A stretch of 64,000 nt of DNA, from positions 1 through 64,000 of the IMG/VR virus record IMGVR_UViG_3300050138_000176. The stretch is one strand, 5' to 3'. This DNA is from a virus. The notes beneath the pieces were generated by a model. The model saw nothing but the letters and a program-made list of their open reading frames with translations, was not told the DNA's origin and ran no database searches. Of this stretch, positions 26,557 through 44,550 are shown one piece after another (positions within the stretch are counted from its first letter, which is position 1; each line of letters opens with the position of its first letter). Made by a program: the position numbers and the translations under genes.

Positions 26557-28677
26557 ATGCCCACCATCGGCACAAACCTCTGGACGCTGACCTACGACCC
26601 GACCGGCGCCAACGTGGAGCAGGCGCTGGCCGACTGGGGCATAACCGGCATGCGGATCGAGTACGTGTCGCAGGCGATGGACACCGTGGCGTTCCGGCTC
26701 GCCGGCTCCAATGTGGACGACCCTCTGGTGTTCGCGTTCCTGAAGGAGTGTGTCATCAAGAGCGGCCGCACCAGCACCGACGGCGTGGTGTTCAGCGGCG
26801 GCAGGTCCCGGTTCCGCGGCCTGGTGCTTGAGCCGAAGCGGGCAGCTCAGGGAGGCGACGAGTCCATGACCTACAAGCTCGGCGGCCCGTGGTGGTACTT
26901 CGAGAATCTGACCGCCGAGGTGGATTTCAAGATCATCACCGCCATCGCTCCAGGCGGCGCCATCACCTACGCGACCTTCCGCAGCACCCATTTCCTGCTG
27001 AATTGGAATGCGCAGAACCTGCGGCAGACCACCGGACAAATAATTGAGGAGATGGTGAAACTCAGCATCACCACCGGCGCGCCGATGCAGATTCTGCCGG
27101 ACGAGACCCGCACTGTGATCAACCTGCCAGGAGAGAACGATGGAACGGCGCTGTGCAGCGCAGGGATACGAAGCGACCTCTACGTGCCGCTGGATGAGGT
27201 GAACACAATCTCGGTCGCGGAATGTATCCGTAAAATGTTCCGCTGGACTCCGGACTTGGTTTCATGGTTCGACTACACGACCGACCCATACCCGACGTTC
27301 CGCTGCTGCCGCCACACGGACATGGCGCAGGTTAACATCGACCTATTGGATGGTGGTGACGTGGCCGGAGTGTCCATCACCAGCGCCACGCTGACGCCGC
27401 GCTACGACCTCCAGCGGCCGTTCGTGAAATTCATCTTCGAGACCACCAACGAGCTGAACGGTCAGAGCACATTCCTGCTCAGTTACCAGACCTACCCGCC
27501 CAGCCCGGACACCACCGGCATCGGCGCGTTCCGTGGCCTGGAGATGACGGTGGCGTTGCAGGGCGCCAACGTGCATACCACCGATGCCACATTGACAAGC
27601 CAGGTGCTGCCGGTTTTCGGTGTAAGTTCATCCGCCGACCTGGCCTACATCAAAGGCAAGTGCAACTGGTTTGCGGATAAGACTGTCGCAGCGCTCACCG
27701 TGAACAGCGTCTCGTTCCAGCAGGCCGACCCGAACGCGGCTCCAGTGGCGTTCTCTCCCACTTACAATTACGAGATCGTGCAGGGCGGCATCACGCCGTG
27801 GATGAGCCAGGGCGGCGTCCCGGCCCTGTGGGATTCGCAGATAGCGATATTCAACGTGGACTACACGCTGTCGAACGGCGAGTTCACGAAGGGCCACAGC
27901 ATCCAGGTGGAGATACGGACGACCAACCTGAACACGAACGGCATCCGCAAGAAGTTCACCGAGGTCAGCGGCACGCCGTTCTCCGAGGCCGTTCCTTCCA
28001 ACCTGGCGCAGGAGTTCTACAACGCGGTCAACGTGCTCCAATGGGACGGCGAGCTGAAGTGCAAGCAGGACGAGGCGGACTGGCTCGACCTGGACGGCGC
28101 ACCGGTCGGCATCGGGTGCGCGCTCAACATCGACGACAGCGCGCAGTTTGCCGGCATGGCCGCCACGATCCAGCAGGTGCGCGTGGATGTGGACACCGGC
28201 AAGACTACGGTGAAGATCGGCCCGAACCGGATGCTGACGGTGAACGACATTGTGGACTTGATGCGGGTCGTGCGGCGGCGGCTGGTGCTGCTGCCTCTGT
28301 CCACGATGACCGGCGGCACGCTCGGCGGCGGCACGTCGCTGGCCCTGGCGGACGCCTACCCGGCCGGCAAGGGGGCGGCGGGCGCCGGCTACAAGCCGGT
28401 GGCCGTGGCCTCGGACAACGGCGGCGCAACGAACAACTACGTGGCGATGAACACGAACCCGCTGGCGTCCGGTCCGGGAGCCGGGTCATGGGGTCTGCTA
28501 GTGCAGCAGGCTGGTGACAATCTTATCAATGTGAGTTACCCGGACGCCATCATAAACGGCGTCAAGCGGCCGGTTGCGCTGCGGCTCTACGACGTATGCA
28601 CCTACGACCCGGCCACTGGAGCGCCGACCGTGCAGCAATGCGTGCTGCTCGGCTCTGTGCCGTTCCCAAAGACGTGA
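26557..28677 (+). CDS. Tail hub / tip protein
   Basis: Follows the tape measure gene; hub-like motifs (RFRGLVLE, YKLGGPWW, IQQVRVDVDTGKTTVKIG). Confidence 0.6.
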   Translation: MPTIGTNLWTLTYDPTGANVEQALADWGITGMRIEYVSQAMDTVAFRLAGSNVDDPLVFAFLKECVIKSGRTSTDGVVFSGGRSRFRGLVLEPKRAAQGGDESMTYKLGGPWWYFENLTAEVDFKIITAIAPGGAITYATFRSTHFLLNWNAQNLRQTTGQIIEEMVKLSITTGAPMQILPDETRTVINLPGENDGTALCSAGIRSDLYVPLDEVNTISVAECIRKMFRWTPDLVSWFDYTTDPYPTFRCCRHTDMAQVNIDLLDGGDVAGVSITSATLTPRYDLQRPFVKFIFETTNELNGQSTFLLSYQTYPPSPDTTGIGAFRGLEMTVALQGANVHTTDATLTSQVLPVFGVSSSADLAYIKGKCNWFADKTVAALTVNSVSFQQADPNAAPVAFSPTYNYEIVQGGITPWMSQGGVPALWDSQIAIFNVDYTLSNGEFTKGHSIQVEIRTTNLNTNGIRKKFTEVSGTPFSEAVPSNLAQEFYNAVNVLQWDGELKCKQDEADWLDLDGAPVGIGCALNIDDSAQFAGMAATIQQVRVDVDTGKTTVKIGPNRMLTVNDIVDLMRVVRRRLVLLPLSTMTGGTLGGGTSLALADAYPAGKGAAGAGYKPVAVASDNGGATNNYVAMNTNPLASGPGAGSWGLLVQQAGDNLINVSYPDAIINGVKRPVALRLYDVCTYDPATGAPTVQQCVLLGSVPFPKT

Positions 28678-28931
28678 ACACCATAGCCAAACTCGTTATT
28701 CTGTTCTGCTGCTTTGCCGGACTGGTTCTGGTTGAGAAGTGGCGCGGCGACCGATTGCAGACAGACTGGGACTACAACCGACGCTCTTTGTGGTTCGAGT
28801 TCCATCATGGCGGCGGGGAAACTATAATTGGCGCTGGTTGGGAAAAGCATTACCCAGTCAACGGTGGATATGATGACGGGTTTTGGAAGCCTTTCTACCT
28901 ATGCGAATCTTGGCATACATCGTCGTATTGA
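28674..28931 (+). CDS. Small membrane-anchored hypothetical protein
   Basis: GTGA overlap; N-terminal hydrophobic stretch. Confidence 0.45.
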   Translation: MNTIAKLVILFCCFAGLVLVEKWRGDRLQTDWDYNRRSLWFEFHHGGGETIIGAGWEKHYPVNGGYDDGFWKPFYLCESWHTSSY

Positions 28932-29284
28932 TTCCTATTTATCTGACCGGCTGCGCCACCGCTCCAGTCACGCCAGTTCTGCCTCCTGTCACCTCGTCGC
29001 CGGCGCGGCCACCGCTGCCGACCATGCCGCCGGGCATGACAGGACATGCGCAACCAGAGGCCGCTCCACAGTCCGTGCCAGTTCAACAGAAGGCGCATAC
29101 AACCGTCGTCGCCGCCGACTGGCCGCCGGTGCCGGGCACCGGGTTCTTTCAGAGCTCGACCGACCTGGTTCATTGGACCACGTTCTACTCGTTCCAAGTG
29201 CCTGACGGCGGCGGCACGGTGACGGCTACCAACCTGTCTCCGGCATCCGTCATGTTCTACCGGGTCGGGAGGTCGGTTCCGTGA
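28901..29284 (+). CDS. Pro-rich lipoprotein
   Basis: MRILAYIVVLIPIYLTG-C lipobox; C-terminal QSSTDLVHWT...MFYRV motif. Confidence 0.7.
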   Translation: MRILAYIVVLIPIYLTGCATAPVTPVLPPVTSSPARPPLPTMPPGMTGHAQPEAAPQSVPVQQKAHTTVVAADWPPVPGTGFFQSSTDLVHWTTFYSFQVPDGGGTVTATNLSPASVMFYRVGRSVP

Positions 29285-36237: not shown

Positions 36238-36569
36238 TTGACGATATTACCGATGGTGAATGGACGGCTGTAGCCAGCATCGGCCAGTTCATGGGATCGG
36301 ATGGCCCAAGGTGGGAAATGGATGGTGCCAAGATCGCAGTGGTGTCCACTGACTGCCCGTACCACATAATTGCGGATTTCTCATGCAACCACACATGCCG
36401 ACTGGATATGGAATGCGAAGCGAACGCCATGCTGTGCGCCGCCGCGCCGGACTTGCTGGCGGCCTGCATTGGGTTTGTAAACCATGTCGATGACAGACAG
36501 CAAGGAGTACCGCCATTTTACTATGAAATGAAAGCCGCCGTCGCCAAAGCCACAGGAGGTGCCAAATGA
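36234..36569 (+). CDS. Phage hypothetical protein
   Basis: ANA.L.AAAPDLL.AC...AVAKATG, a motif common in phage early genes. Confidence 0.6.
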   Translation: MIDDITDGEWTAVASIGQFMGSDGPRWEMDGAKIAVVSTDCPYHIIADFSCNHTCRLDMECEANAMLCAAAPDLLAACIGFVNHVDDRQQGVPPFYYEMKAAVAKATGGAK

Positions 36570-38782
36570 AGTTATCCAACATTTCCGCCGTCGCGTTTAA
36601 AGGCCGCACATTCTCCTACCCGCTCACCGGCGTCACTCATTTCCATGGCAGGAACCGTGTCGGCAAGACCGCCGTGTTCGATGCCGCGGTGGTCGCGCTG
36701 TGCGGCAAGCTGCCGGGCGTCGGGGTCAACGGGAAGCAGTTGCACGAAGCGCTGGCGTCCGGGGATACAATGTCCGTGAAAGCAACCACGGCAGACGATG
36801 GCTGTATCGGTCGCGCATACATAGCCAAGACTGACAAGGAAGGCAATATCACCGTCAAGGCTTCCTGCGCCACGGTTCGGTTGCCCGAAGACTGGGTCGC
36901 GCCGACCGTCATGTTCGCGCCGTCCGAGTTCCTGGAACTTAGCGACCGGGAGCGGACCAACTACCTGTTCCGGGTGCTGCCGCCGCCGCCGATGGACGAG
37001 TTCGGCCCGGTGGCGCTCAAGGCCAAACTCAAGAACTTCAAGGCGGAGCCGCACACCGAGGCGCACGAGCAGACCATAGATAAACTGTGTCAGCATATTG
37101 ACGGAAGCTACAATGAATCACAAGGTGACGGCTTCCTGATGCAAGACTGGCTTTCAAGCCTATCAGGTGAAGTCCGCGAGAATGCCAACCTCGCCACGCA
37201 ACAGGCGAAGCGGATGCAGGCCACGGCGGCCGGCGTCGTGGAGCTGAAGAAGGCCGGCGTGCCGCAAGGCCAGGCCGAAGGCGACAAGGCCAGGGCGCAG
37301 CGGGCGCTGGACGCCGCCAACGAGGCACGGACCAAGGTGGCCGAGCAGTGGCAGGCGGCGAACCGGGAACTGAAAGCGGCCACGGCGACCGCGCAGAGCT
37401 ACGTGGCGCCGGATCCGGGAGCCAAAGCGCAGGCACATGAGGACGTGGCGAATTGGAAGACGGCGTTGGAACAGCCATTGCCTTTGGCGCTGGAGCCGGT
37501 GCCGGGACTGGCGGACGCGACACGGAAACTTGAGGACGCGCAGGCTGAAGTGATCCGGCTGGCGAAGGAAGCCGCCGAGTTCCACGATGACGCGCCGGGC
37601 GTAGAGTCCACATCACGGCGCACGTTTCAGCAGGCAACCGATGCGCTTTCCAAAGCAAACTACGAGGCGCAAGTGGCGCGGAATAATGTAGAAACCATCA
37701 AAGGCGACCGCGCCAAGTTTGACGCAGCTACCTGCTGCCCGACCTGCCGGGCCGACGGCACCGGATGGAAACAGCGCGTGTTGGACGAACTGGACGCCAA
37801 ACTCAAAAGCCTGACGGCCATCATGGACGGCGCGCTGGTGGTCGTCACGAAGGCCAAGAAGTCGCACGAGGTAGCCGCCAACAAGCTGCAATGCGTTCTG
37901 GAGCGGTTAGGGAAAAAGGCGATCAACACATCCTCTACCGCCGCAGCCAAGCTCGCTGAAGCCAACGCGGTAACGTGTATCGAACGACTAAAGCAACAAC
38001 GGCAGAACGAATTAGTGCTCTTACGGTCGCATCAGCAATCGGAGAGGGATAAATCCATCTCAAGGCTAAAGACAATCACCGATGCCGAGGCCAAGGCCGA
38101 ACCGGCCCGGCTGGCCCGCGAGTCGCTGCCGCAGTTGCAGGCTACTCTGGCGGAGATCGAAGACAATGCGAAACCATTCTGCAAGGAACGAATCGCAGAA
38201 CTCCAGACGGCGGTCACGGCGGCCGACACCGTGCTGCGCCAGTGCATCGCCGAGGCGGCGACCGCGAAACAGGTCAAGGCGGCCGGCGAAGCCTACGACA
38301 AGGCGCTGGCCGAGGCGACCGTGACCAAGCACCTGTCGGAGCTGCTCAACGAGACCTTGGCCGCGTGCGTTGAGAAGTCCGTGGCACCGCTGCTGGACGC
38401 CGCGAATGAATTATTTAAAGGCGTGTTGGACGATCCGTTGGTATGGTACGAAGGCGTGATCGGGATGCATGAAAAGGGCGGTCATTTTTATAGCTGGCGT
38501 ACCTTCAGCGGATCCGAACGTGCGATTGCCTTCGCGGCCATCGGCTGCGCCCTGGCGGCGGCGTCCGGCTACCGGCTGGCTATCATCGACGAGTTGAGTC
38601 GTCTTGATGATACAACGAAGGCACGGCTGTTGGAGCGGCTGTGCGGGCTGGTGACGGTAGGCAAGCTCGACCAGGCGATAGTCGTGGACGTGCGGCCCGC
38701 GCCGGAGCTGGGCGGTTACTTCTCGACTAATCCAGCCACTCCAACCAATCCAATCTTCACCAGCATCGAGGTGCTGCCATGA
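36566..38782 (+). CDS. Rad50/SbcC-like SMC ATPase
   Basis: Walker A GRNRVGKT, coiled coils with a CPTC zinc hook, signature FSGSE, Walker B/D-loop IIDELSRLD. Confidence 0.85.
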   Translation: MKLSNISAVAFKGRTFSYPLTGVTHFHGRNRVGKTAVFDAAVVALCGKLPGVGVNGKQLHEALASGDTMSVKATTADDGCIGRAYIAKTDKEGNITVKASCATVRLPEDWVAPTVMFAPSEFLELSDRERTNYLFRVLPPPPMDEFGPVALKAKLKNFKAEPHTEAHEQTIDKLCQHIDGSYNESQGDGFLMQDWLSSLSGEVRENANLATQQAKRMQATAAGVVELKKAGVPQGQAEGDKARAQRALDAANEARTKVAEQWQAANRELKAATATAQSYVAPDPGAKAQAHEDVANWKTALEQPLPLALEPVPGLADATRKLEDAQAEVIRLAKEAAEFHDDAPGVESTSRRTFQQATDALSKANYEAQVARNNVETIKGDRAKFDAATCCPTCRADGTGWKQRVLDELDAKLKSLTAIMDGALVVVTKAKKSHEVAANKLQCVLERLGKKAINTSSTAAAKLAEANAVTCIERLKQQRQNELVLLRSHQQSERDKSISRLKTITDAEAKAEPARLARESLPQLQATLAEIEDNAKPFCKERIAELQTAVTAADTVLRQCIAEAATAKQVKAAGEAYDKALAEATVTKHLSELLNETLAACVEKSVAPLLDAANELFKGVLDDPLVWYEGVIGMHEKGGHFYSWRTFSGSERAIAFAAIGCALAAASGYRLAIIDELSRLDDTTKARLLERLCGLVTVGKLDQAIVVDVRPAPELGGYFSTNPATPTNPIFTSIEVLP

Positions 38783-40464: not shown

Positions 40465-41097
40465 GTGAACCACGACCTCTACTCAATCCTCGGCCTGCCA
40501 CGCGACGCCACAGATGCCGACATCAAGAAGCAGTATCGGCGGCTTGCTGTCCTATACCACCCGGACGCCGTTCCTCACGCCACAGATTATGAGAAGGAGG
40601 AATCCGCCGCCAAGTTCCGGGAGGTGCAGGAATCCTACGACACGCTCGGCGACCCGGAAGCCAGGGCGCGCTATGACAAGGACGGCACGACCGGCGACGG
40701 CAGCCGGCTCCAGAAGGAAGCCTTGTCGAACGTGTGCGGCCTGGTGCTGGCGGTCGCGGAGACCGGCGGCGAGGGCTGCGACATCGTGGCGGCGGTCCGG
40801 CAGCAGGTCGCCAACGCGAAGACCATGGCGTTGAACGCGGCGGACACCGCAAGGAAAAAGGCCGCGCTGTTCCGGCGGCAGGCGGCCAGGATCACGCGCA
40901 AGGCTGGCGGCGAGAACGTGCTGTCCACGGCCATTGAAAATCAGGCGGACAAGATGGACGCGGCGGCCAGGGACTTCGAGGCCAGCGTGGCGATGCAGGA
41001 CGCCATGATGGGGCTGCTGGCGGACTACGAGTGCGCGGCTTCAACGCAAAATAAATATGTTGCGATTGGCGGACTCACTTACACATGGACGCGATGA
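40465..41097 (+). CDS. J-domain (DnaJ-like) protein
   Basis: DLYSILGL...IKKQYRRLA..YHPD...FREVQESYDTLGD...RARYD. Confidence 0.9.
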   Translation: MNHDLYSILGLPRDATDADIKKQYRRLAVLYHPDAVPHATDYEKEESAAKFREVQESYDTLGDPEARARYDKDGTTGDGSRLQKEALSNVCGLVLAVAETGGEGCDIVAAVRQQVANAKTMALNAADTARKKAALFRRQAARITRKAGGENVLSTAIENQADKMDAAARDFEASVAMQDAMMGLLADYECAASTQNKYVAIGGLTYTWTR

Positions 41098-41297
41098 CAC
41101 CATGGCAGAAAATAAATCAGGTCTTTGAAGATGCCGAAAAGCTAAGGAAGCTGGAAGCGATATATATGGAGAGGGGTGATGTCACCTATGAACAGGCGCG
41201 GCAATGGGCGCTTGAAAAGTGGAAAAATAAATCGGTTGACTCGGCGGCGGGTTCGGTGCAGGATAACAACATGACAACGACTATGACTAATAAATAA
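41094..41297 (+). CDS. Small hypothetical protein
   Basis: ATGA overlap; its 3' end runs through the next promoter. Confidence 0.4.
   Translation: MTPWQKINQVFEDAEKLRKLEAIYMERGDVTYEQARQWALEKWKNKSVDSAAGSVQDNNMTTTMTNK
41236..41264 (+). promoter_or_regulatory. Putative promoter for the RAMP gene and array
   Basis: AATAAATCGG-TTGACT-17-CAGGAT, homologous to the promoter at 35466. Confidence 0.5.
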
Positions 41298-41299
41298 CA

Positions 41300-41881
41300 A
41301 TGAAAATCCAAATTACATTCAGCGAAGAAGTGTTAGGGACGGCGTCTCAGAACCCGGAAATACACAGGGAGTTTATCGCAAGCAAATCTCCAGACGCAGC
41401 AACGGTGGAAGATGAAGTGGCGGCAATTGGAGCGGATGCTGTCGCCGATAAAATGATGACCGTATTCCCGCGTGACGGTGGAAAGCCGTTTGTTTACGAC
41501 TACCAAATCAAAGGCTTCTTCAAGGATGCCTGCGCATCTCTGGCGCGGGTACCCGGCACTCAAAGCAATAAACTAAAAGCGTATAAAAAGGTGATCGATG
41601 GAACCATCTTTATCTTTCCACGAAAAATCCATTTCGGCGGTGAGGTTAAGCTTGGAAATTGCCAAAGACCTCTGCGGGCCGAAACAGCTCAGGGGCCGCG
41701 TGTCGCGCTGGCAAACAGCGAGACATTGCCATCTGGTGCGACATTGGAATGCGAGATACGGTGCCTAGATGAAGGCATGGAGAAAGTGGTTAAGGAATGG
41801 TTGAACTACGGAGCGTTGCGAGGTCTGGGACAGTGGCGGAATTCAGGCAAAGGCAGGTTCTCATGGAAGTTAATGGAATAA
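41300..41881 (+). CDS. Stand-alone RAMP/Cas7-like RNA-binding protein
   Basis: N-terminal strand KIQITFSEEVLG, central PFVYDYQIKGFFKDAC helix, E.LPSGATLECEI, and C-terminal Gly-rich loop GALRGLGQWRNSGKGRF. Confidence 0.7.
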   Translation: MKIQITFSEEVLGTASQNPEIHREFIASKSPDAATVEDEVAAIGADAVADKMMTVFPRDGGKPFVYDYQIKGFFKDACASLARVPGTQSNKLKAYKKVIDGTIFIFPRKIHFGGEVKLGNCQRPLRAETAQGPRVALANSETLPSGATLECEIRCLDEGMEKVVKEWLNYGALRGLGQWRNSGKGRFSWKLME

Positions 41882-42164
41882 GCAACGGCGTGGCAACACC
41901 GAGCACAGCAATGATTAGTACAGCAAAGGCTACGCAAGGCCGCTCACCGTATAGCAATGGCACTGCACGGCGGATCAAGGCGCAGTAAAGCATAGGCATG
42001 GCAACGCCGGGAACAGCGACGGCAGGGCAGGGTGTTGCAGAGCGCGGCCACGGCAAGGCGAGGCAAGGTGCAATAACGCATAGCAAAGGCATTGCGAGGC
42101 GCTGCCGCGAGTAGCAAAGGCTTGGCTCAGTGAGTCAACGCCAAGCATAGCAAAGGCAAAGCAT
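41881..42164 (+). ncRNA. Pentamer (NGY-NN) repeat array, putative guide-RNA locus
   Basis: AGCAAAGGC-like punctuation at 41881, 41922, 41953, 41989, 42015, 42046, 42082, 42113 and 42149 (spacings 41, 31, 36, 26, 31, 36, 31, 36; all 5n+1). 36 of 44 intervening pentamers start with NGY. The array is directly visible; the RNA function is inferred. Confidence 0.65.
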
Positions 42165-42172
42165 AATAAGAT

Positions 42173-43903
42173 ATGACATCCGAAACCAAACTCGATCAGT
42201 GGCAGGAAGCAGCGGCGGCCAGCACCAGCGACATAATCTACGTGTGCGCCTGTCCTGGAAGTGGGAAAACTGCAACCACCGTAGAGCGTGTGCGAAGGAT
42301 GCTGGCGCGTGGTGTCGCACCGGAAACCATCTGCTGCGTTACGTTCACTTGTGCGGGTGCTCTCGAAATGCAGAAGCGGCTCGGTGTCCGGCTCGGTCAC
42401 TGCGGCACGCTTCACTCCCTCGCGCTCAAAATGCTGACCAAGCACCACAAACTTGCCGGGCTGCCGGCCCGCGTCACCGTTACCGACGAGCAGGAGGCGG
42501 CGGCGTCGCTGGCCGAGATCGTGACCATGCTGCGCTTTGATGGAAAGATTAGCGACAAGAAGCTGGCTGAGGCGGTCAAGTCGCAGCGGCACGCGATGGC
42601 GTTCGCCGGTGCCATCGAATCCTCGTCGCTGACCAAGGAAGGCGTGGTCGCCAAGGAATTCTTCCGACGGCAGCAGGAGGCTGGAGAATTGGACTACGAC
42701 TCGGTGCTGGTCTATTTCCTGCGGCTGCTCAAGACTGGAGTGGAGCCGTGGCCGTTCAAGCACCTGCTCGTGGATGAGGCTCAGGACAACGCGGCGATTG
42801 ACTGGGATATCTATGACCTGATGCCGGTCAAGACACGGTGGGCGGTGGGTGACATCGACCAATCCATCTATTCCTTCCGTGGAGCCAAGCCAGTAAGATT
42901 CCTGTCAAGAATAGGCGAGGCACAAAACAGCATCGCGTTCGGTCAAGCATTCCAACTGCCTACAAACTACAGATCGGGACGCGCCATCGTGACCGCCTCG
43001 CAACGCCTCATTGCGCACAACACGGCCCGCGTTGCAATGACCGCGCAGCCGCGACCGGACGCCGGTGACGGCATGGTGCAGAGCAAGGAGTTCAATGCGC
43101 CGGTCGATGAACTATCGTGGGTCGCCAACGAGTTGTCCAAGCTGGCACCCGGCGACACGGCGGCGGTTCTGTGGCGCACGAATCGTCTCGCTGACCAGTG
43201 CCGACAGCACTTCCAGAGCCTCGGCGTCAAGCTGGCGCAGCCGCTGGCGAGGGAGCCGAAGGAGGCCAGGGCGGCGCGGGCCGTTCTTAATTTCCTAGCC
43301 TCGCCTTGGAGTGATACGGCGGCGTTGCGGGCCGCGAAGGCGGTCGGACTGGACGCTTCAACGGTGCATTCGCAGTGCGACTTCCAAGGCCAGTCACCGT
43401 GCGTTCTGCTCAACGGCGGCATGGGTGCTTTTGACCGTGACGACGGAAACCCGGTCGCGTTTACAGTGGACGAATTCAAGGAGGCGCTCCGTGCCGTCCA
43501 AGTCCTGTCTGCTACCGGCACCGACGGCATCCGCGACGCGCTGCACAAGCTCGCGGCCTCGCTGCCGGAGCCGTTCACGCTCACCGACCTGATCTCGGCA
43601 GCGAACAGCCGCGACGAGCCGGTCGCGGAGCAGGAAGGGATAATAATTTCTACCGCGCATTCTGCAAAAGGACGGGAATGGGATATTGTGATAATTTGTG
43701 GCATGGAACAGGAAACATGGCCTGGCCGCAACGCCGCAGAAGATTTGGAAAGCGAACGGCGCTTGGCGTACGTGGCCACGACAAGGGCACGGAGCAGATT
43801 GGTTGTTACATGGTGCAAGCAGCGTCCCGCACCTGGACGCGCTTGGTTGATGCAGGATATGACACCGTCGCAATTTATTTCAGAACTTGGCTTGACCAAG
43901 TAA
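42173..43903 (+). CDS. UvrD/Rep-like SF1 helicase
   Basis: ACPGSGKT, VTFT, TLHS, LVDEAQD, VGDIDQSIYSFRGA, LPTNYRS, STAHSAKGREW, ERRLAYVATTRA. Confidence 0.95.
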   Translation: MTSETKLDQWQEAAAASTSDIIYVCACPGSGKTATTVERVRRMLARGVAPETICCVTFTCAGALEMQKRLGVRLGHCGTLHSLALKMLTKHHKLAGLPARVTVTDEQEAAASLAEIVTMLRFDGKISDKKLAEAVKSQRHAMAFAGAIESSSLTKEGVVAKEFFRRQQEAGELDYDSVLVYFLRLLKTGVEPWPFKHLLVDEAQDNAAIDWDIYDLMPVKTRWAVGDIDQSIYSFRGAKPVRFLSRIGEAQNSIAFGQAFQLPTNYRSGRAIVTASQRLIAHNTARVAMTAQPRPDAGDGMVQSKEFNAPVDELSWVANELSKLAPGDTAAVLWRTNRLADQCRQHFQSLGVKLAQPLAREPKEARAARAVLNFLASPWSDTAALRAAKAVGLDASTVHSQCDFQGQSPCVLLNGGMGAFDRDDGNPVAFTVDEFKEALRAVQVLSATGTDGIRDALHKLAASLPEPFTLTDLISAANSRDEPVAEQEGIIISTAHSAKGREWDIVIICGMEQETWPGRNAAEDLESERRLAYVATTRARSRLVVTWCKQRPAPGRAWLMQDMTPSQFISELGLTK

Positions 43904-44040
43904 CGCTTATGGGTTTTACTTATTGCCAGCGGATTAAGTCCCGTTTATGCAAACAAAACATCTTTGCTCCCGACGCCTTTTGGCGGCGACTCCCCGTCAG
44001 CCGCGGCTTAACTCTTGGCGGCGGGAGCTTTAGGATTAGC

Positions 44041-44550
44041 ATGGAAAACATTAACATAACCATTCAAAGACCACTCAATGCCAGAACCAAAAGCCATCCA
44101 TTGTTCCAGACATATAAGAGTTGGAGGTCTATGCGAGACCGGTGTAACAATCCACGCATACCAGACTGGAAGCGTTATGGCGCAAGGGGGATTAAGGTTT
44201 GTGAGCATTGGTCTGTATTTCAAAACTTCCTAAACGACATGGGGATCAGGCCGGATGACACTTCCATCGACCGTATAAATAATGACGGAAACTACGAACC
44301 AGGAAACTGCCGGTGGGCATCAAGACAGGAGCAGGGAAATAATCGGCGAACCAACCGAATTGTGGAATACGGTGGGAAAAGGCTAACCATTTCTCAGTGG
44401 GCTGAATTAATTAAGATAGACTATGAGGCCCTGAGATATAGGCTAGACGCCGGCTGGTCAATTAAGGAAGCTTTGGAAACCCCATCCAGAAACGAGAGAA
44501 CGACCGATATTCACACGGTCATGGAACGCGAGCCGCAACTAGACTTATGA
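44041..44550 (+). CDS. HNH homing endonuclease
   Basis: SWRSMRDRC, YGARGIKVC.HW..FQNFLNDMG, SIDRINNDGNYEPGNCRW. Confidence 0.9.
   Translation: MENINITIQRPLNARTKSHPLFQTYKSWRSMRDRCNNPRIPDWKRYGARGIKVCEHWSVFQNFLNDMGIRPDDTSIDRINNDGNYEPGNCRWASRQEQGNNRRTNRIVEYGGKRLTISQWAELIKIDYEALRYRLDAGWSIKEALETPSRNERTTDIHTVMEREPQLDL

What the first reader, a model, noticed from the sequence alone, without database searches (positions are those of the whole stretch)
41236..42170. Solo RAMP/Cas7-like gene plus a pentamer-coded non-coding array: candidate non-CRISPR RNA-guided system
Seen: the 193-aa ORF ends in the Gly-rich loop GLGQWRNSGKGRF. The array starts on the last base of its stop codon and parses exactly as AGCAAC GGC-GT GGC-AA CAC-CG AGC-AC AGC-AA TGA-TT AGT-AC | AGCAAA GGC-TA CGC-AA GGC-CG CTC-AC CGT-AT | AGCAAT GGC-AC TGC-AC GGC-GG ATC-AA GGC-GC AGT-AA | AGCATA GGC-AT GGC-AA CGC-CG GGA-AC | AGCGAC GGC-AG GGC-AG GGT-GT TGC-AG AGC-GC | GGCCAC GGC-AA GGC-GA GGC-AA GGT-GC AAT-AA CGC-AT | AGCAAA GGC-AT TGC-GA GGC-GC TGC-CG CGA-GT | AGCAAA GGC-TT GGC-TC AGT-GA GTC-AA CGC-CA AGC-AT | AGCAAA GGC-AA AGC-AT. 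By hand count, 36/44 triplets are NGY and 39/44 have a central G, while the dinucleotides vary freely. No + frame stays open across the array, and no cas1, cas5, cas6 or cas8 gene is recognisable. Established: RAMP-fold Cas7 proteins polymerise along guide RNA with a fixed nucleotide period per subunit. Inference: each protein subunit binds one constant triplet and displays the variable dinucleotide, giving a discontinuous targeting code, perhaps against competing phages or host promoters. From memory this resembles the recently reported phage VIPR (GGY/NN) systems; that match is unverified, and the relaxed NGY plus 6-nt punctuation seen here may be a variant.
Basis: partly seen in the sequence, partly recalled or inferred. 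Interest (0 to 1): 0.95.

Follow-up and report, generated by a model that had tools for sequence, protein, structure and literature searches.

The report
Phage VIPR locus: Vipr plus guide array
A peat-metagenome phage carries a small Cas7-like protein gene followed directly by an array of five-letter repeats, which is a genuine further example of the VIPR RNA-guided systems first described in 2026 preprints, so it is real but not a new kind of system.

Summary
ORF 41300..41881 (193 aa) ends in a RAMP-type glycine loop. From base 41881 to 42164 there are 55 pentamers and 9 single extra bases. Lag-5/10 self-identity is 0.43/0.41 against about 0.2 at other lags. No other stretch of the window scores like it.

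The protein family is homologous to the characterised Vipr of Escherichia phage SUSP1. The profile-profile score is 40.5, against at most 19.4 in 60 column shuffles. Its profile also hits Cas7 and Csm4 chains in the PDB.

The gene-array pair is conserved: 80 of 80 viral loci and 35 of 37 genome loci have a 5-nt-periodic tract next to the gene. No neighbouring gene is conserved, and the adjacent UvrD-like helicase is found in 0 of 117 loci.

This is therefore a VIPR system (bioRxiv 10.64898/2026.04.26.720920). Its local traits:
- a relaxed nG(C/A)-NN repeat;
- units of 5-8 pentamers plus one base, most likely the preprint's 'staggered' arrays;
- no 3' tail and no accessory gene.

Expression, processing and targets were not shown, and the target searches were negative. 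This scan already holds 625 VIPR notes on at least 417 other genomes.

The parts
41300..41881 (+). vipr gene: 193-aa Vipr-family RAMP protein with G-loop GLGQWRNSGKGRF near the C-terminus
   Evidence: ORF. hhalign of its family profile A1 against SUSP1 Vipr: probability 85%, E 6.3e-6, 173 columns. Against the SUSP1-clade profile A2: score 40.5, E 2.5e-5, 189 columns, versus at most 19.4 in 60 column shuffles. A1 against PDB sequences: Cas7 E 2.5e-6, Csm4 E 1.7e-3. No Pfam, PHROGs or NCBIfam family.
41881..42164 (+). vrRNA array: 55 pentamers (nGY-NN) and 9 single extra bases. It starts on the last base of the vipr stop codon and ends 8 nt before the next gene
   Evidence: No Rfam family. No fold beyond shuffles, z -0.87. 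No promoter-like or terminator-like site on the + strand between vipr and the helicase.
41887..41926 (+). unit 1: 8 pentamers, NN string GT AA CG AC AA TT AC AA, preceded by extra base 41886
   Evidence: Parse
41928..41957 (+). unit 2: 6 pentamers, preceded by extra base 41927
   Evidence: Parse; boundary motif copy at 41922-41931
41959..41993 (+). unit 3: 7 pentamers, preceded by extra base 41958
   Evidence: Parse
41995..42019 (+). unit 4: 5 pentamers, preceded by extra base 41994
   Evidence: Parse
42021..42050 (+). unit 5: 6 pentamers, preceded by extra base 42020
   Evidence: Parse
42052..42086 (+). unit 6: 7 pentamers, preceded by extra base 42051
   Evidence: Parse
42088..42117 (+). unit 7: 6 pentamers, preceded by extra base 42087
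   Evidence: Parse; boundary motif copy at 42082-42091
42119..42153 (+). unit 8: 7 pentamers, preceded by extra base 42118; followed by extra base 42154 and two last pentamers (42155-42164)
   Evidence: Parse; boundary motif copies at 42113-42122 and 42149-42158
42173..43903 (+). UvrD/Rep-like SF1 helicase gene. It is adjacent and probably on the same transcript, but it is not a conserved partner of the module and is listed as context only
   Evidence: Pfam UvrD-helicase 2.1e-38 and UvrD_C 1.4e-29. tblastn finds a relative in 0 of 80 viral and 0 of 37 genome loci that carry vipr.

Best explanation
This is a VIPR (Viral Interference Programmable Repeat) module on a phage genome. It consists of a vipr gene for a small RAMP protein, followed without a gap by an array of guide-RNA (vrRNA) units.

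Inferred mechanism, by homology to the SUSP1 system: the array is transcribed with vipr as part of a long + strand operon. Vipr protomers bind one pentamer each and sequester the conserved triplet, here essentially the central G plus C/A. They expose the two variable bases. The exposed dinucleotides then pair with double-stranded DNA that carries the same dinucleotides separated by one skipped base, and transcription of a competing mobile element or host locus is silenced.

Specific to this clade, the array is cut into units of 5-8 pentamers. Each unit opens with a full GGC and closes with nGC-AA plus one extra base, so each unit is shifted by +1 relative to the one before. I infer that each unit is one short guide of about one helical turn of the Vipr filament, released from the polycistronic RNA at the nGCAA|n|GG boundary.

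Shown here: the sequence pattern, the homology and the conserved gene-array linkage. Inferred: transcription, processing, binding, the skip rule and the targets.
For: 1. Pattern. Strong 5-nt periodicity, unique in the window. The + strand reads GGC/nGC-NN, the orientation expected of a vrRNA, and all neighbouring genes are on the + strand.

2. Homology.
- SUSP1 Vipr was located at KT454805.2 28474..29061(-). It carries H17 and D177-W178-R179 as the cryo-EM preprint states and equals PDB 36pp 'SUSP1 Vipr protein'.
- The family profile A1 aligns with it end to end: probability 85%, E 6.3e-6.
- A1 against the SUSP1-clade profile A2 scores 40.5. Sixty column-shuffled controls gave a mean of 14.3, sd 2.4, maximum 19.4; the reversed control gave 16.3.
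- GLGQWRNSGKGRF aligns on GVGDWRP-RFGRF. W179/R180 match W178/R179, and both are nearly invariant in 64 family members.
- A1 also hits PDB chains that depositors call Cas7 (E 2.5e-6) and Csm4 (E 1.7e-3) over the G-loop region.
- ESM Atlas neighbours, which are this protein's own family, are 88-89% viral. Two are auto-named RAMP or CRISPR-associated.

3. Linkage. 80 of 80 IMG/VR loci have a periodic tract next to the gene; in L013 it lies about 600 nt after the gene. Of the 37 genome loci, 35 have one: 32 downstream, 4 of which also have one upstream, and 3 upstream only. No flanking gene of the window recurs in these loci apart from one ORF seen in 2 of them. No other neighbour family occurs in more than 7 of the 37 genome loci.

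4. Positive control. The same periodicity score flags, in the first 50 kb of SUSP1, only the two intergenic regions that flank vipr-vap1. The preprint places the vrRNAs there.

5. Units behave as modules. Related arrays differ by whole-unit insertions and deletions bounded by the GCAAnGGC motif.

6. Context. This is a phage: a head protease/major head fusion, tail fibre, DnaB-like helicase and methyltransferase, on an IMG/VR virus record of 86,504 bp with direct terminal repeats.
Against: - No structure model could be made, so the RRM core and the thumb are not shown.
- hhalign probabilities are 75-85%, not above 95%. Plain hmmsearch with A1 did not list the SUSP1 Vipr chain at E up to 10.
- Only 22 of 55 triplets are strict GGY. 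The residues that read the first G in SUSP1 are replaced: H17 by T14 and D177 by Q178. The thumb arginine R138 aligns with E141 in a low-confidence stretch.
- Units carry only 5-8 dinucleotides, against 9-16 repeats in the published type II vrRNAs. The last dinucleotide is mostly AA. That leaves about 8-14 specifying bases, which is little for unique targeting.
- No 3' tail and no accessory gene.
- No target was found. The eight units have no match above shuffled controls in the phage's own genome or in 117 related loci. 427 guides from related arrays show no preference for any skip rule. Unit 1 gives 14 exact IMG/VR hits under the 1-nt skip rule, against 20 with a 2-nt skip and 21 with no skip.
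- The per-position statistics of the parse lean on an emission model that favours a central G. The autocorrelation does not.
Confidence: 0.85

Rival explanations
1. VIPR with the adjacent UvrD-like helicase as its accessory (vap) effector. In this reading the guide complex recruits the helicase to the target, as type I and type IV-A CRISPR complexes recruit Cas3 or DinG, rather than acting by silencing alone.
For: The helicase ATG lies 8 nt after the array, with no terminator-like site on the + strand between them. The discovery preprint says that types III-V have vap genes predicted to encode nucleases or helicases.
Against: A relative of this helicase occurs in 0 of 117 loci that carry a relative of this vipr. 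No other neighbour family is conserved either. The helicase sits in a replication/recombination gene block that also holds a DnaB-like helicase and a methyltransferase, so adjacency is the only link.
Confidence: 0.07
2. The tract works as DNA rather than RNA. It would be an iteron-like or recombination-prone repeat field, for example a replication or partition site, bound by the neighbouring protein as a DNA-binding protein.
For: The module lies among replication and recombination genes. Arrays change by unit-scale insertions and deletions, as recombining repeats do. No expression data exist.
Against: The protein is homologous to an RNA-binding RAMP whose complex with a pentamer-repeat RNA has been solved. 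The strand asymmetry is kept relative to the gene in all loci read by eye. The tract is always in the transcription direction of the gene, and in the window it directly follows the stop codon.
Confidence: 0.04
3. The tract is coding: the 100-aa ORF on the minus strand (41790..42092) or the 63-aa + ORF (41797..41988) is a real gene, and the periodicity is a by-product.
For: Both ORFs exist.
Against: A 5-nt period does not fit codon structure. Spacings between extra bases are mostly 26, 31 and 36 nt (342 of 557). Related arrays also differ by blocks of such lengths, which would shift any reading frame. The minus-strand ORF overlaps the 3' end of vipr.
Confidence: 0.01
4. A decayed or orphan relic: the gene and repeats are of VIPR origin but no longer work. 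The repeats would be too degenerate and the units too short to guide anything.
For: Only 22 of 55 triplets are GGY and no target was found.
Against: The same relaxed consensus and unit design recur in 115 of 117 related loci from different habitats, with an intact gene. The G-loop residues are nearly invariant across 64 members at 39-73% identity. This pattern indicates purifying selection on a clade-specific design rather than decay.
Confidence: 0.03

Closest known systems
VIPR type II of Escherichia phage SUSP1 (Vipr, vap1, four vrRNAs). Sources: bioRxiv 10.64898/2026.04.26.720920 (Results, Discussion and Methods sections 18 and 20 read) and 10.64898/2026.04.26.720927 (abstract, section 5 and passages read); PDB 36pp
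   Same: - A small Vipr protein of about 195 aa, homologous end to end.
- A G-loop with the W-R pair.
- A phage-borne, minimal locus.
- Non-coding pentamer repeats next to the gene, with a conserved G-containing triplet and variable dinucleotides. The same periodicity score picks out both systems.
   Different: - The repeat here is nG(C/A)-NN with a full GG only at the start of each unit, whereas SUSP1 has strict GGT/GGC.
- H17 and D177, which read the first G in SUSP1, are T14 and Q178 here.
- Units have 5-8 repeats and abut each other with one extra base. SUSP1 has about 12 repeats followed by a structured 3' tail, with separate transcription units.
- No vap1 homolog and no conserved accessory gene.
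- The array starts on the stop codon of vipr.
'Staggered' vrRNA arrays and alternative repeat consensuses (NNNGG, YNNNG, NNNNG) mentioned in the discovery preprint (fig. S18 legend and Methods 'VIPR type classification'; the figure and data tables were not visible)
   Same: Guides abut without tails, and the end of one marks the start of the next with a 1-nt offset. The consensus is relaxed to a single conserved G.
   Different: Identity cannot be verified because supplements and figures were closed. The preprint says that only the ribozyme-interspersed and single-vrRNA architectures were confirmed by small-RNA sequencing, so the staggered design is itself untested. The unit-length distribution (26, 31 and 36 nt) and the nGCAA|n|GG boundary logo come, not from the paper.
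Class 1 CRISPR backbone RAMPs (Cas7; Csm4/Cas5)
   Same: The G-loop region and the preceding strand match by profile: PDB 'Cas7' chains 21bh/8yhd at E 2.5e-6 and Csm4 6xn3 at E 1.7e-3. Both polymerise along a guide with a fixed nucleotide period per subunit (established knowledge; stated).
   Different: There is no CRISPR repeat-spacer array and there are no other cas genes nearby. The period is 5 nt with 2 exposed bases, rather than 6 nt with 5 exposed bases. The context is viral.

Membership tests
VIPR system | Vipr protein: a RAMP homolog related to characterised Vipr proteins | tested here: met
   hhalign of A1 against SUSP1 Vipr: 85%, E 6.3e-6. A1 against A2: score 40.5 versus at most 19.4 in 60 shuffles. 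The SUSP1 Vipr identity was checked against PDB 36pp.
VIPR system | Glycine-rich loop (G-loop) of RAMPs | tested here: met
   GLGQWRNSGKGRF; G175, Q178, W179, R180, N181, G185 and F187 are invariant or at least 90% conserved in 64 members. It aligns to the G-loops of SUSP1 Vipr, Cas7 and Csm4.
VIPR system | RRM core fold and thumb domain | not testable with these tools
The ESM Atlas holds a model (pTM 0.77), but its structural neighbours are only this protein's own family.
VIPR system | Adjacent non-coding tandem pentamers in which a conserved GGY or related consensus alternates with hypervariable NN (the preprint's search used at least 4 units) | tested here: met
   55 pentamers: central G in 50 of 55, NGY in 47 of 55, strict GGY in only 22 of 55; 13 different NN dinucleotides. 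This is the 'related consensus' form.
VIPR system | Gene-array linkage conserved across relatives | tested here: met
   80 of 80 viral loci; 35 of 37 genome loci. Of the two misses, one locus is cut at the gene.
VIPR system | Minimal locus outside CRISPR-cas context, mostly viral or proviral | tested here: met
   Phage genes on both sides; virus record with terminal repeats. No cas family in the ORFs checked between 36.5 and 46 kb. The whole window was not scanned for CRISPR arrays.
VIPR system | vap accessory gene (typical, not universal, according to the preprint) | tested here: not met
   No conserved neighbour; the UvrD-like helicase is in 0 of 117 loci. The preprint also reports stand-alone vipr genes.
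VIPR system | vrRNAs expressed and bound by Vipr | not testable with these tools
   No RNA run is listed for this DNA. This needs small-RNA sequencing and a pull-down.
VIPR system | Targets that follow the 1-nt skip rule | tested here: inconclusive
   No enrichment for any skip rule. The collections searched may not hold the natural targets of a peat phage.
VIPR type II (SUSP1-like) | vrRNAs of 9-16 strict YNNGG repeats capped by a conserved structured 3' tail; vap1 present | tested here: not met
   Units of 5-8 pentamers without tails. The array folds no better than shuffles. No vap1.
CRISPR-Cas class 1 | CRISPR repeat-spacer array plus further cas genes (cas1/2, cas5, cas6, large subunit) | tested here: not met
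   Neighbouring ORFs are a DnaJ-domain protein, an SMC-like ATPase, a UvrD-like helicase and unknowns. The repeat period is 5 nt.

The most novel reading that the evidence does not exclude
This very abundant Vipr clade has at least 7747 protein clusters at 90% identity and 1721 representatives at 50%. It may use a punctuation logic that has not been shown experimentally. In this reading, tail-less guides of about one helical turn each (5-7 protomers, 26/31/36 nt) are measured out by a full GG start and an nGCAA-plus-one-base stop. They are cut straight from the vipr transcript and read with a code that needs only one conserved G, because the residues that read the first G in SUSP1 (H17, D177) are replaced by T and Q. 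Such short guides, each with about 8-14 specifying bases, would have to act together on one target or would tolerate many sites. That would be a different targeting economy from the 9-16-repeat vrRNAs studied so far.
Probability: 0.3. Interest if true: 0.55.

Novelty: new member of a known kind. Interest (0 to 1): 0.3.

Why it matters
The locus adds a clean, compact example of VIPR from a peat phage: 582 nt of gene plus 284 nt of array. It shows that one Vipr clade travels as a gene-plus-array pair with no accessory gene, across gut and peat viromes.

Three features could guide experiments on how guides are delimited when there is no 3' tail:
- the regular 5n+1 unit design;
- the boundary logo;
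- the pairing of a relaxed first-G requirement with changed G-reading residues.

They could also help define the minimal guide length for VIPR-based tools. The locus does not reveal a new class of system.

Tried and rejected
- Family libraries: no Pfam, PHROGs or NCBIfam family fits the protein. Across the 64 members of A1 the only CRISPR-related Pfam hits were CRISPR_Cas6 in 2 of 64 (best E 0.011) and C2c1_Nuc-II in 1 of 64 (E 0.13), which is too weak to use. NCBIfam Csm4 scored E 0.19, also too weak.
- phmmer of the single protein against PDB sequences gave nothing meaningful (best E 0.83).
- Tandem Repeats Finder reports nothing in 41700-42300 at score 30 or more, because the repeats are too degenerate.
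- Rfam found no family at E up to 1 in 41000-42600, so there is no hammerhead ribozyme between units.
- Expression: no RNA holder is listed for this stretch. The only full holder is a peat metagenome DNA run, which may be the source of the record.

Target searches:
- The eight units were searched against the phage's own 86.5-kb genome and 117 related loci (861,060 nt, arrays masked) with 0-3 skipped bases. There were no exact matches for units of 6-8 pentamers. Counts with one or two mismatches were like those of shuffled dinucleotide orders.
- The 5-pentamer unit gave 34 exact matches at skip 3. I take these for residual unmasked array sequence; I did not locate them.
- 427 unique guides from all arrays were searched against 79 dereplicated loci (620,222 nt). 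Exact hits were 26, 29, 25 and 29 for skips 0-3, against 38, 28, 26 and 32 for shuffled orders.
- Unit 1 (16 specified bases) in IMG/VR gave 14 stretches with a 1-nt skip, 20 with a 2-nt skip and 21 with no skip. The 14 hits fall in unrelated contexts, apart from near-identical contigs.
- The metagenome-contig scan was not used, because a single scan without a control could not be interpreted.

Rejected readings:
- A weak 5-nt signal at 66061-66320 of the full genome, outside the window, lies in ordinary-looking sequence with lag-5 identity of only 0.35. It was rejected as an array.
- The UvrD-like helicase as a conserved partner was rejected.
- A paper search for the PDB code 8YHD, meant to name the Cas7 hit more precisely, found only unrelated papers.
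- Supplementary files of the preprints (type tables, data S3/S4, figs S16-S18) were closed or not held. Whether this clade has a type number there is therefore unknown.
Full report
WHAT IS THERE

The window belongs to an IMG/VR virus record of 86,504 bp with direct terminal repeats. The completeness listed for it is 56. The only full DNA holder among public runs is a peat metagenome. Nearly all ORFs lie on the + strand and G+C is 59.6%. PHROGs names a head protease/major head fusion, tail fibre proteins, a DNA methyltransferase and a DnaB-like helicase, so this is a phage.

The ORF 41300..41881 (+) encodes 193 aa ending ...GLGQWRNSGKGRFSWKLME. Its stop codon is 41879-41881. The next gene, a UvrD/Rep-like SF1 helicase (Pfam 2.1e-38), starts at 42173. 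The 291 nt in between hold the array.

Self-identity of 41881-42172 is 0.429 at lag 5 and 0.408 at lag 10. At lags 1-4 and 7-9 it is 0.20-0.26. It reaches 0.483 at lag 31 and 0.492 at lag 36. Against 5000 first-order Markov resamplings the lag-5/10 mean has z = 6.4, and no resampling reached it. In a sliding scan of all 64 kb, only windows starting at 41811-42091 pass a score of 0.12; outside the block of window starts 41791-42111 no window exceeds 0.094.

It gives 55 pentamers and 9 extra bases over 41881..42164, in units of 8, 6, 7, 5, 6, 7, 6 and 7 pentamers. Central G occurs in 50 of 55, NGY in 47 of 55 and strict GGY in 22 of 55. All 9 pentamers that follow an extra base are GGC.

Tandem Repeats Finder does not see the array. 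The repeat finder sees the AGCAAAGGC boundary copies.

WHAT THE PROTEIN IS

No Pfam, PHROGs or NCBIfam family fits. The family is very large:
- 7747 clusters at 90% identity with E of 0.001 or less, among 8000 scored candidates; all 120 listed are unnamed or 'hypothetical';
- 1721 representatives at 50% identity.

A profile of 64 members (A1, 39-73% identical to the query) has an almost invariant G-loop (G175, Q178, W179, R180, N181, G185, F187) and an RPLRA..TAQG.RVALA.SE segment. Against PDB sequences this profile hits chains deposited as Cas7 (21bh/8yhd and others, E 2.5e-6) and Csm4 (E 1.7e-3) over the G-loop region.

A literature search found three 2026 preprints on VIPR systems. I read the Results, Discussion and two Methods sections of the discovery paper. 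For the cryo-EM paper I read the abstract, section 5 and some passages. For the competition paper I saw only the abstract and outline.

Using an accession recalled from memory, I fetched phage SUSP1. I identified its Vipr as the 195-aa product of 28474..29061(-). It has H17 and D177-W178-R179 as the cryo-EM paper states, and it is the PDB entry 36pp 'SUSP1 Vipr protein'.

hhalign of A1 against this protein gives probability 85%, E 6.3e-6 over 173 columns. Against a 38-member SUSP1-clade profile (A2) it gives a score of 40.5, E 2.5e-5, over 189 columns. Sixty column-shuffled versions of A2 score 14.3 +/- 2.4 with a maximum of 19.4, and the reversed profile scores 16.3. The two families are therefore homologous over their whole length.

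In the alignment:
- W178/R179 of SUSP1 match W179/R180 here;
- D177 is Q178;
- H17 is T14.

The ESM Atlas holds a model (pTM 0.77) whose neighbours are the protein's own, mostly viral, family. Two of those clusters are auto-named RAMP or CRISPR-associated.

THE GENE AND THE ARRAY TRAVEL TOGETHER, AND NOTHING ELSE DOES

IMG/VR holds 550 relatives, of which 80 loci were kept. All 80 have a 5-nt-periodic tract next to the gene. In L013 it lies about 600 nt downstream, behind an inserted ORF. Most of these loci come from one metagenome and are not independent.

The species-representative genomes give 37 further loci, mostly gut Clostridia MAGs at 47-64% identity:
- 32 have the tract downstream, and 4 of these also have one upstream;
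- 3 have it upstream only;
- 1 has none;
- 1 is cut at the gene.

None of ten flanking proteins of the window, including the helicase, the DnaJ-domain protein and the SMC-like ATPase, has a relative in any of the 117 loci. The exception is one ORF (43678..44550), seen in 2 loci. ORF clustering finds no neighbour family in more than 7 of the 37 genome loci.

As a positive control, the same score flags only the two intergenic regions beside vipr-vap1 in the first 50 kb of SUSP1. The preprint maps the vrRNAs there.

DESIGN OF THE ARRAY IN THIS CLADE

The figures here come from the 37 genome loci plus this phage, which give 541 unique boundary contexts. The logo reads n-G-C-a-A | n | G-G-(C/A)-a. 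Elsewhere only the second triplet position is conserved (G, 0.77-0.91), followed by C or A. Spacings between extra bases peak at 31 nt (153), 26 nt (97) and 36 nt (92) out of 557.

These per-position figures depend on a parse whose model favours a central G. The autocorrelation does not.

Three closely related arrays differ by whole-unit insertions and deletions whose edges fall at the boundary motif. The units therefore behave as exchangeable modules.

Further negative findings on the tract:
- The array RNA folds no better than shuffles, z -0.87.
- It matches no Rfam family.
- It has no promoter-like or terminator-like site on the + strand around it.

It is therefore most simply part of the vipr-helicase transcript.

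HOW IT MOST LIKELY WORKS

This is inferred from homology. Vipr protomers coat each unit, one per pentamer. They hold the conserved G-containing triplet and present NN. The NN series pairs with DNA that has one skipped base between dinucleotides, and transcription of the bound locus is blocked. This is what was shown for SUSP1.

Two clade-specific inferences follow.

1. The loss of H17 and D177, which bind the first G in SUSP1, fits the relaxed first position of the triplet here.
2. The modal unit of six pentamers equals the six-subunit turn of the binary SUSP1 filament; the DNA-bound form has five per turn. One unit may therefore be one turn of filament. The full GG would act as a start, and the nGCAA plus one extra base as the stop or cleavage point.

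Neither inference was tested.

WHAT IS MISSING

No RNA run is listed. No target was found, and the searches are listed under Tried and rejected. With 5-8 dinucleotides per unit, and the last one mostly AA, each guide specifies only about 8-14 bases. This is the main oddity relative to the published 9-16-repeat vrRNAs.

COMPARISON AND NOVELTY

The locus meets the defining features of VIPR that could be tested: a Vipr homolog, a G-loop, an adjacent pentamer array with variable NN, conserved linkage and a viral minimal locus. It lacks the typical but non-universal vap gene. It is not a type II (SUSP1-like) system, because it has no tail, no vap1, shorter units and a relaxed consensus.

The discovery preprint mentions alternative consensuses (NNNGG, YNNNG, NNNNG). 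[quoted passage not shown] This locus is most likely of that kind. I could not see the figure or the type tables.

This scan already holds 625 notes on VIPR-like loci in at least 417 genomes, one of which names the staggered type as closest. The finding is a correct reading of a system published in 2026, so it is a new member of a known kind.

Noticed in passing
window 43678-44550 (+); L013 3618-4214: An ORF that overlaps the 3' end of the helicase gene has a relative (42% identity by tblastn) inserted between vipr and its array in locus L013, and another in L099. Neither has a Pfam family. It may be a mobile or homing-type gene that can split the module.
   Followed up: partly
window 41847-41855: The boundary motif GCAAAGGCA also occurs inside vipr, in the codons of the G-loop (..SGKGR..), 26 nt before the array starts. 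This is probably chance, but it means the gene's own 3' end resembles a unit boundary.
   Followed up: no
proteins P0209 (458 aa) and P0234 (432 aa): Some relatives are about twice as long, with 2-3 matched stretches. This suggests tandem-duplicated or fused Vipr forms.
   Followed up: no
L084, L097, L103, L118 (both sides); L095, L102, L119 (upstream only): In some relatives a second periodic tract lies directly upstream of vipr, or the only tract is upstream. This resembles the upstream-plus-downstream layout of SUSP1.
   Followed up: partly
window 40465-41297: A DnaJ-domain protein (Pfam 7.5e-21) and a 70-aa ORF whose stop lies 2 nt before the vipr ATG precede vipr. Neither recurs next to vipr elsewhere.
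   Followed up: partly
G000 66061-66320 (outside the window): A weak 5-nt periodic signal (lag-5 identity 0.35) in ordinary-looking sequence. It was judged not to be an array.
   Followed up: yes
window 36566-38782: A 738-aa protein with weak SMC/AAA_23-type N-terminal matches (Pfam E 0.004-0.04, below the cut-offs; PHROG 32642 at 3.6e-7) lies upstream in the same operon.
   Followed up: no
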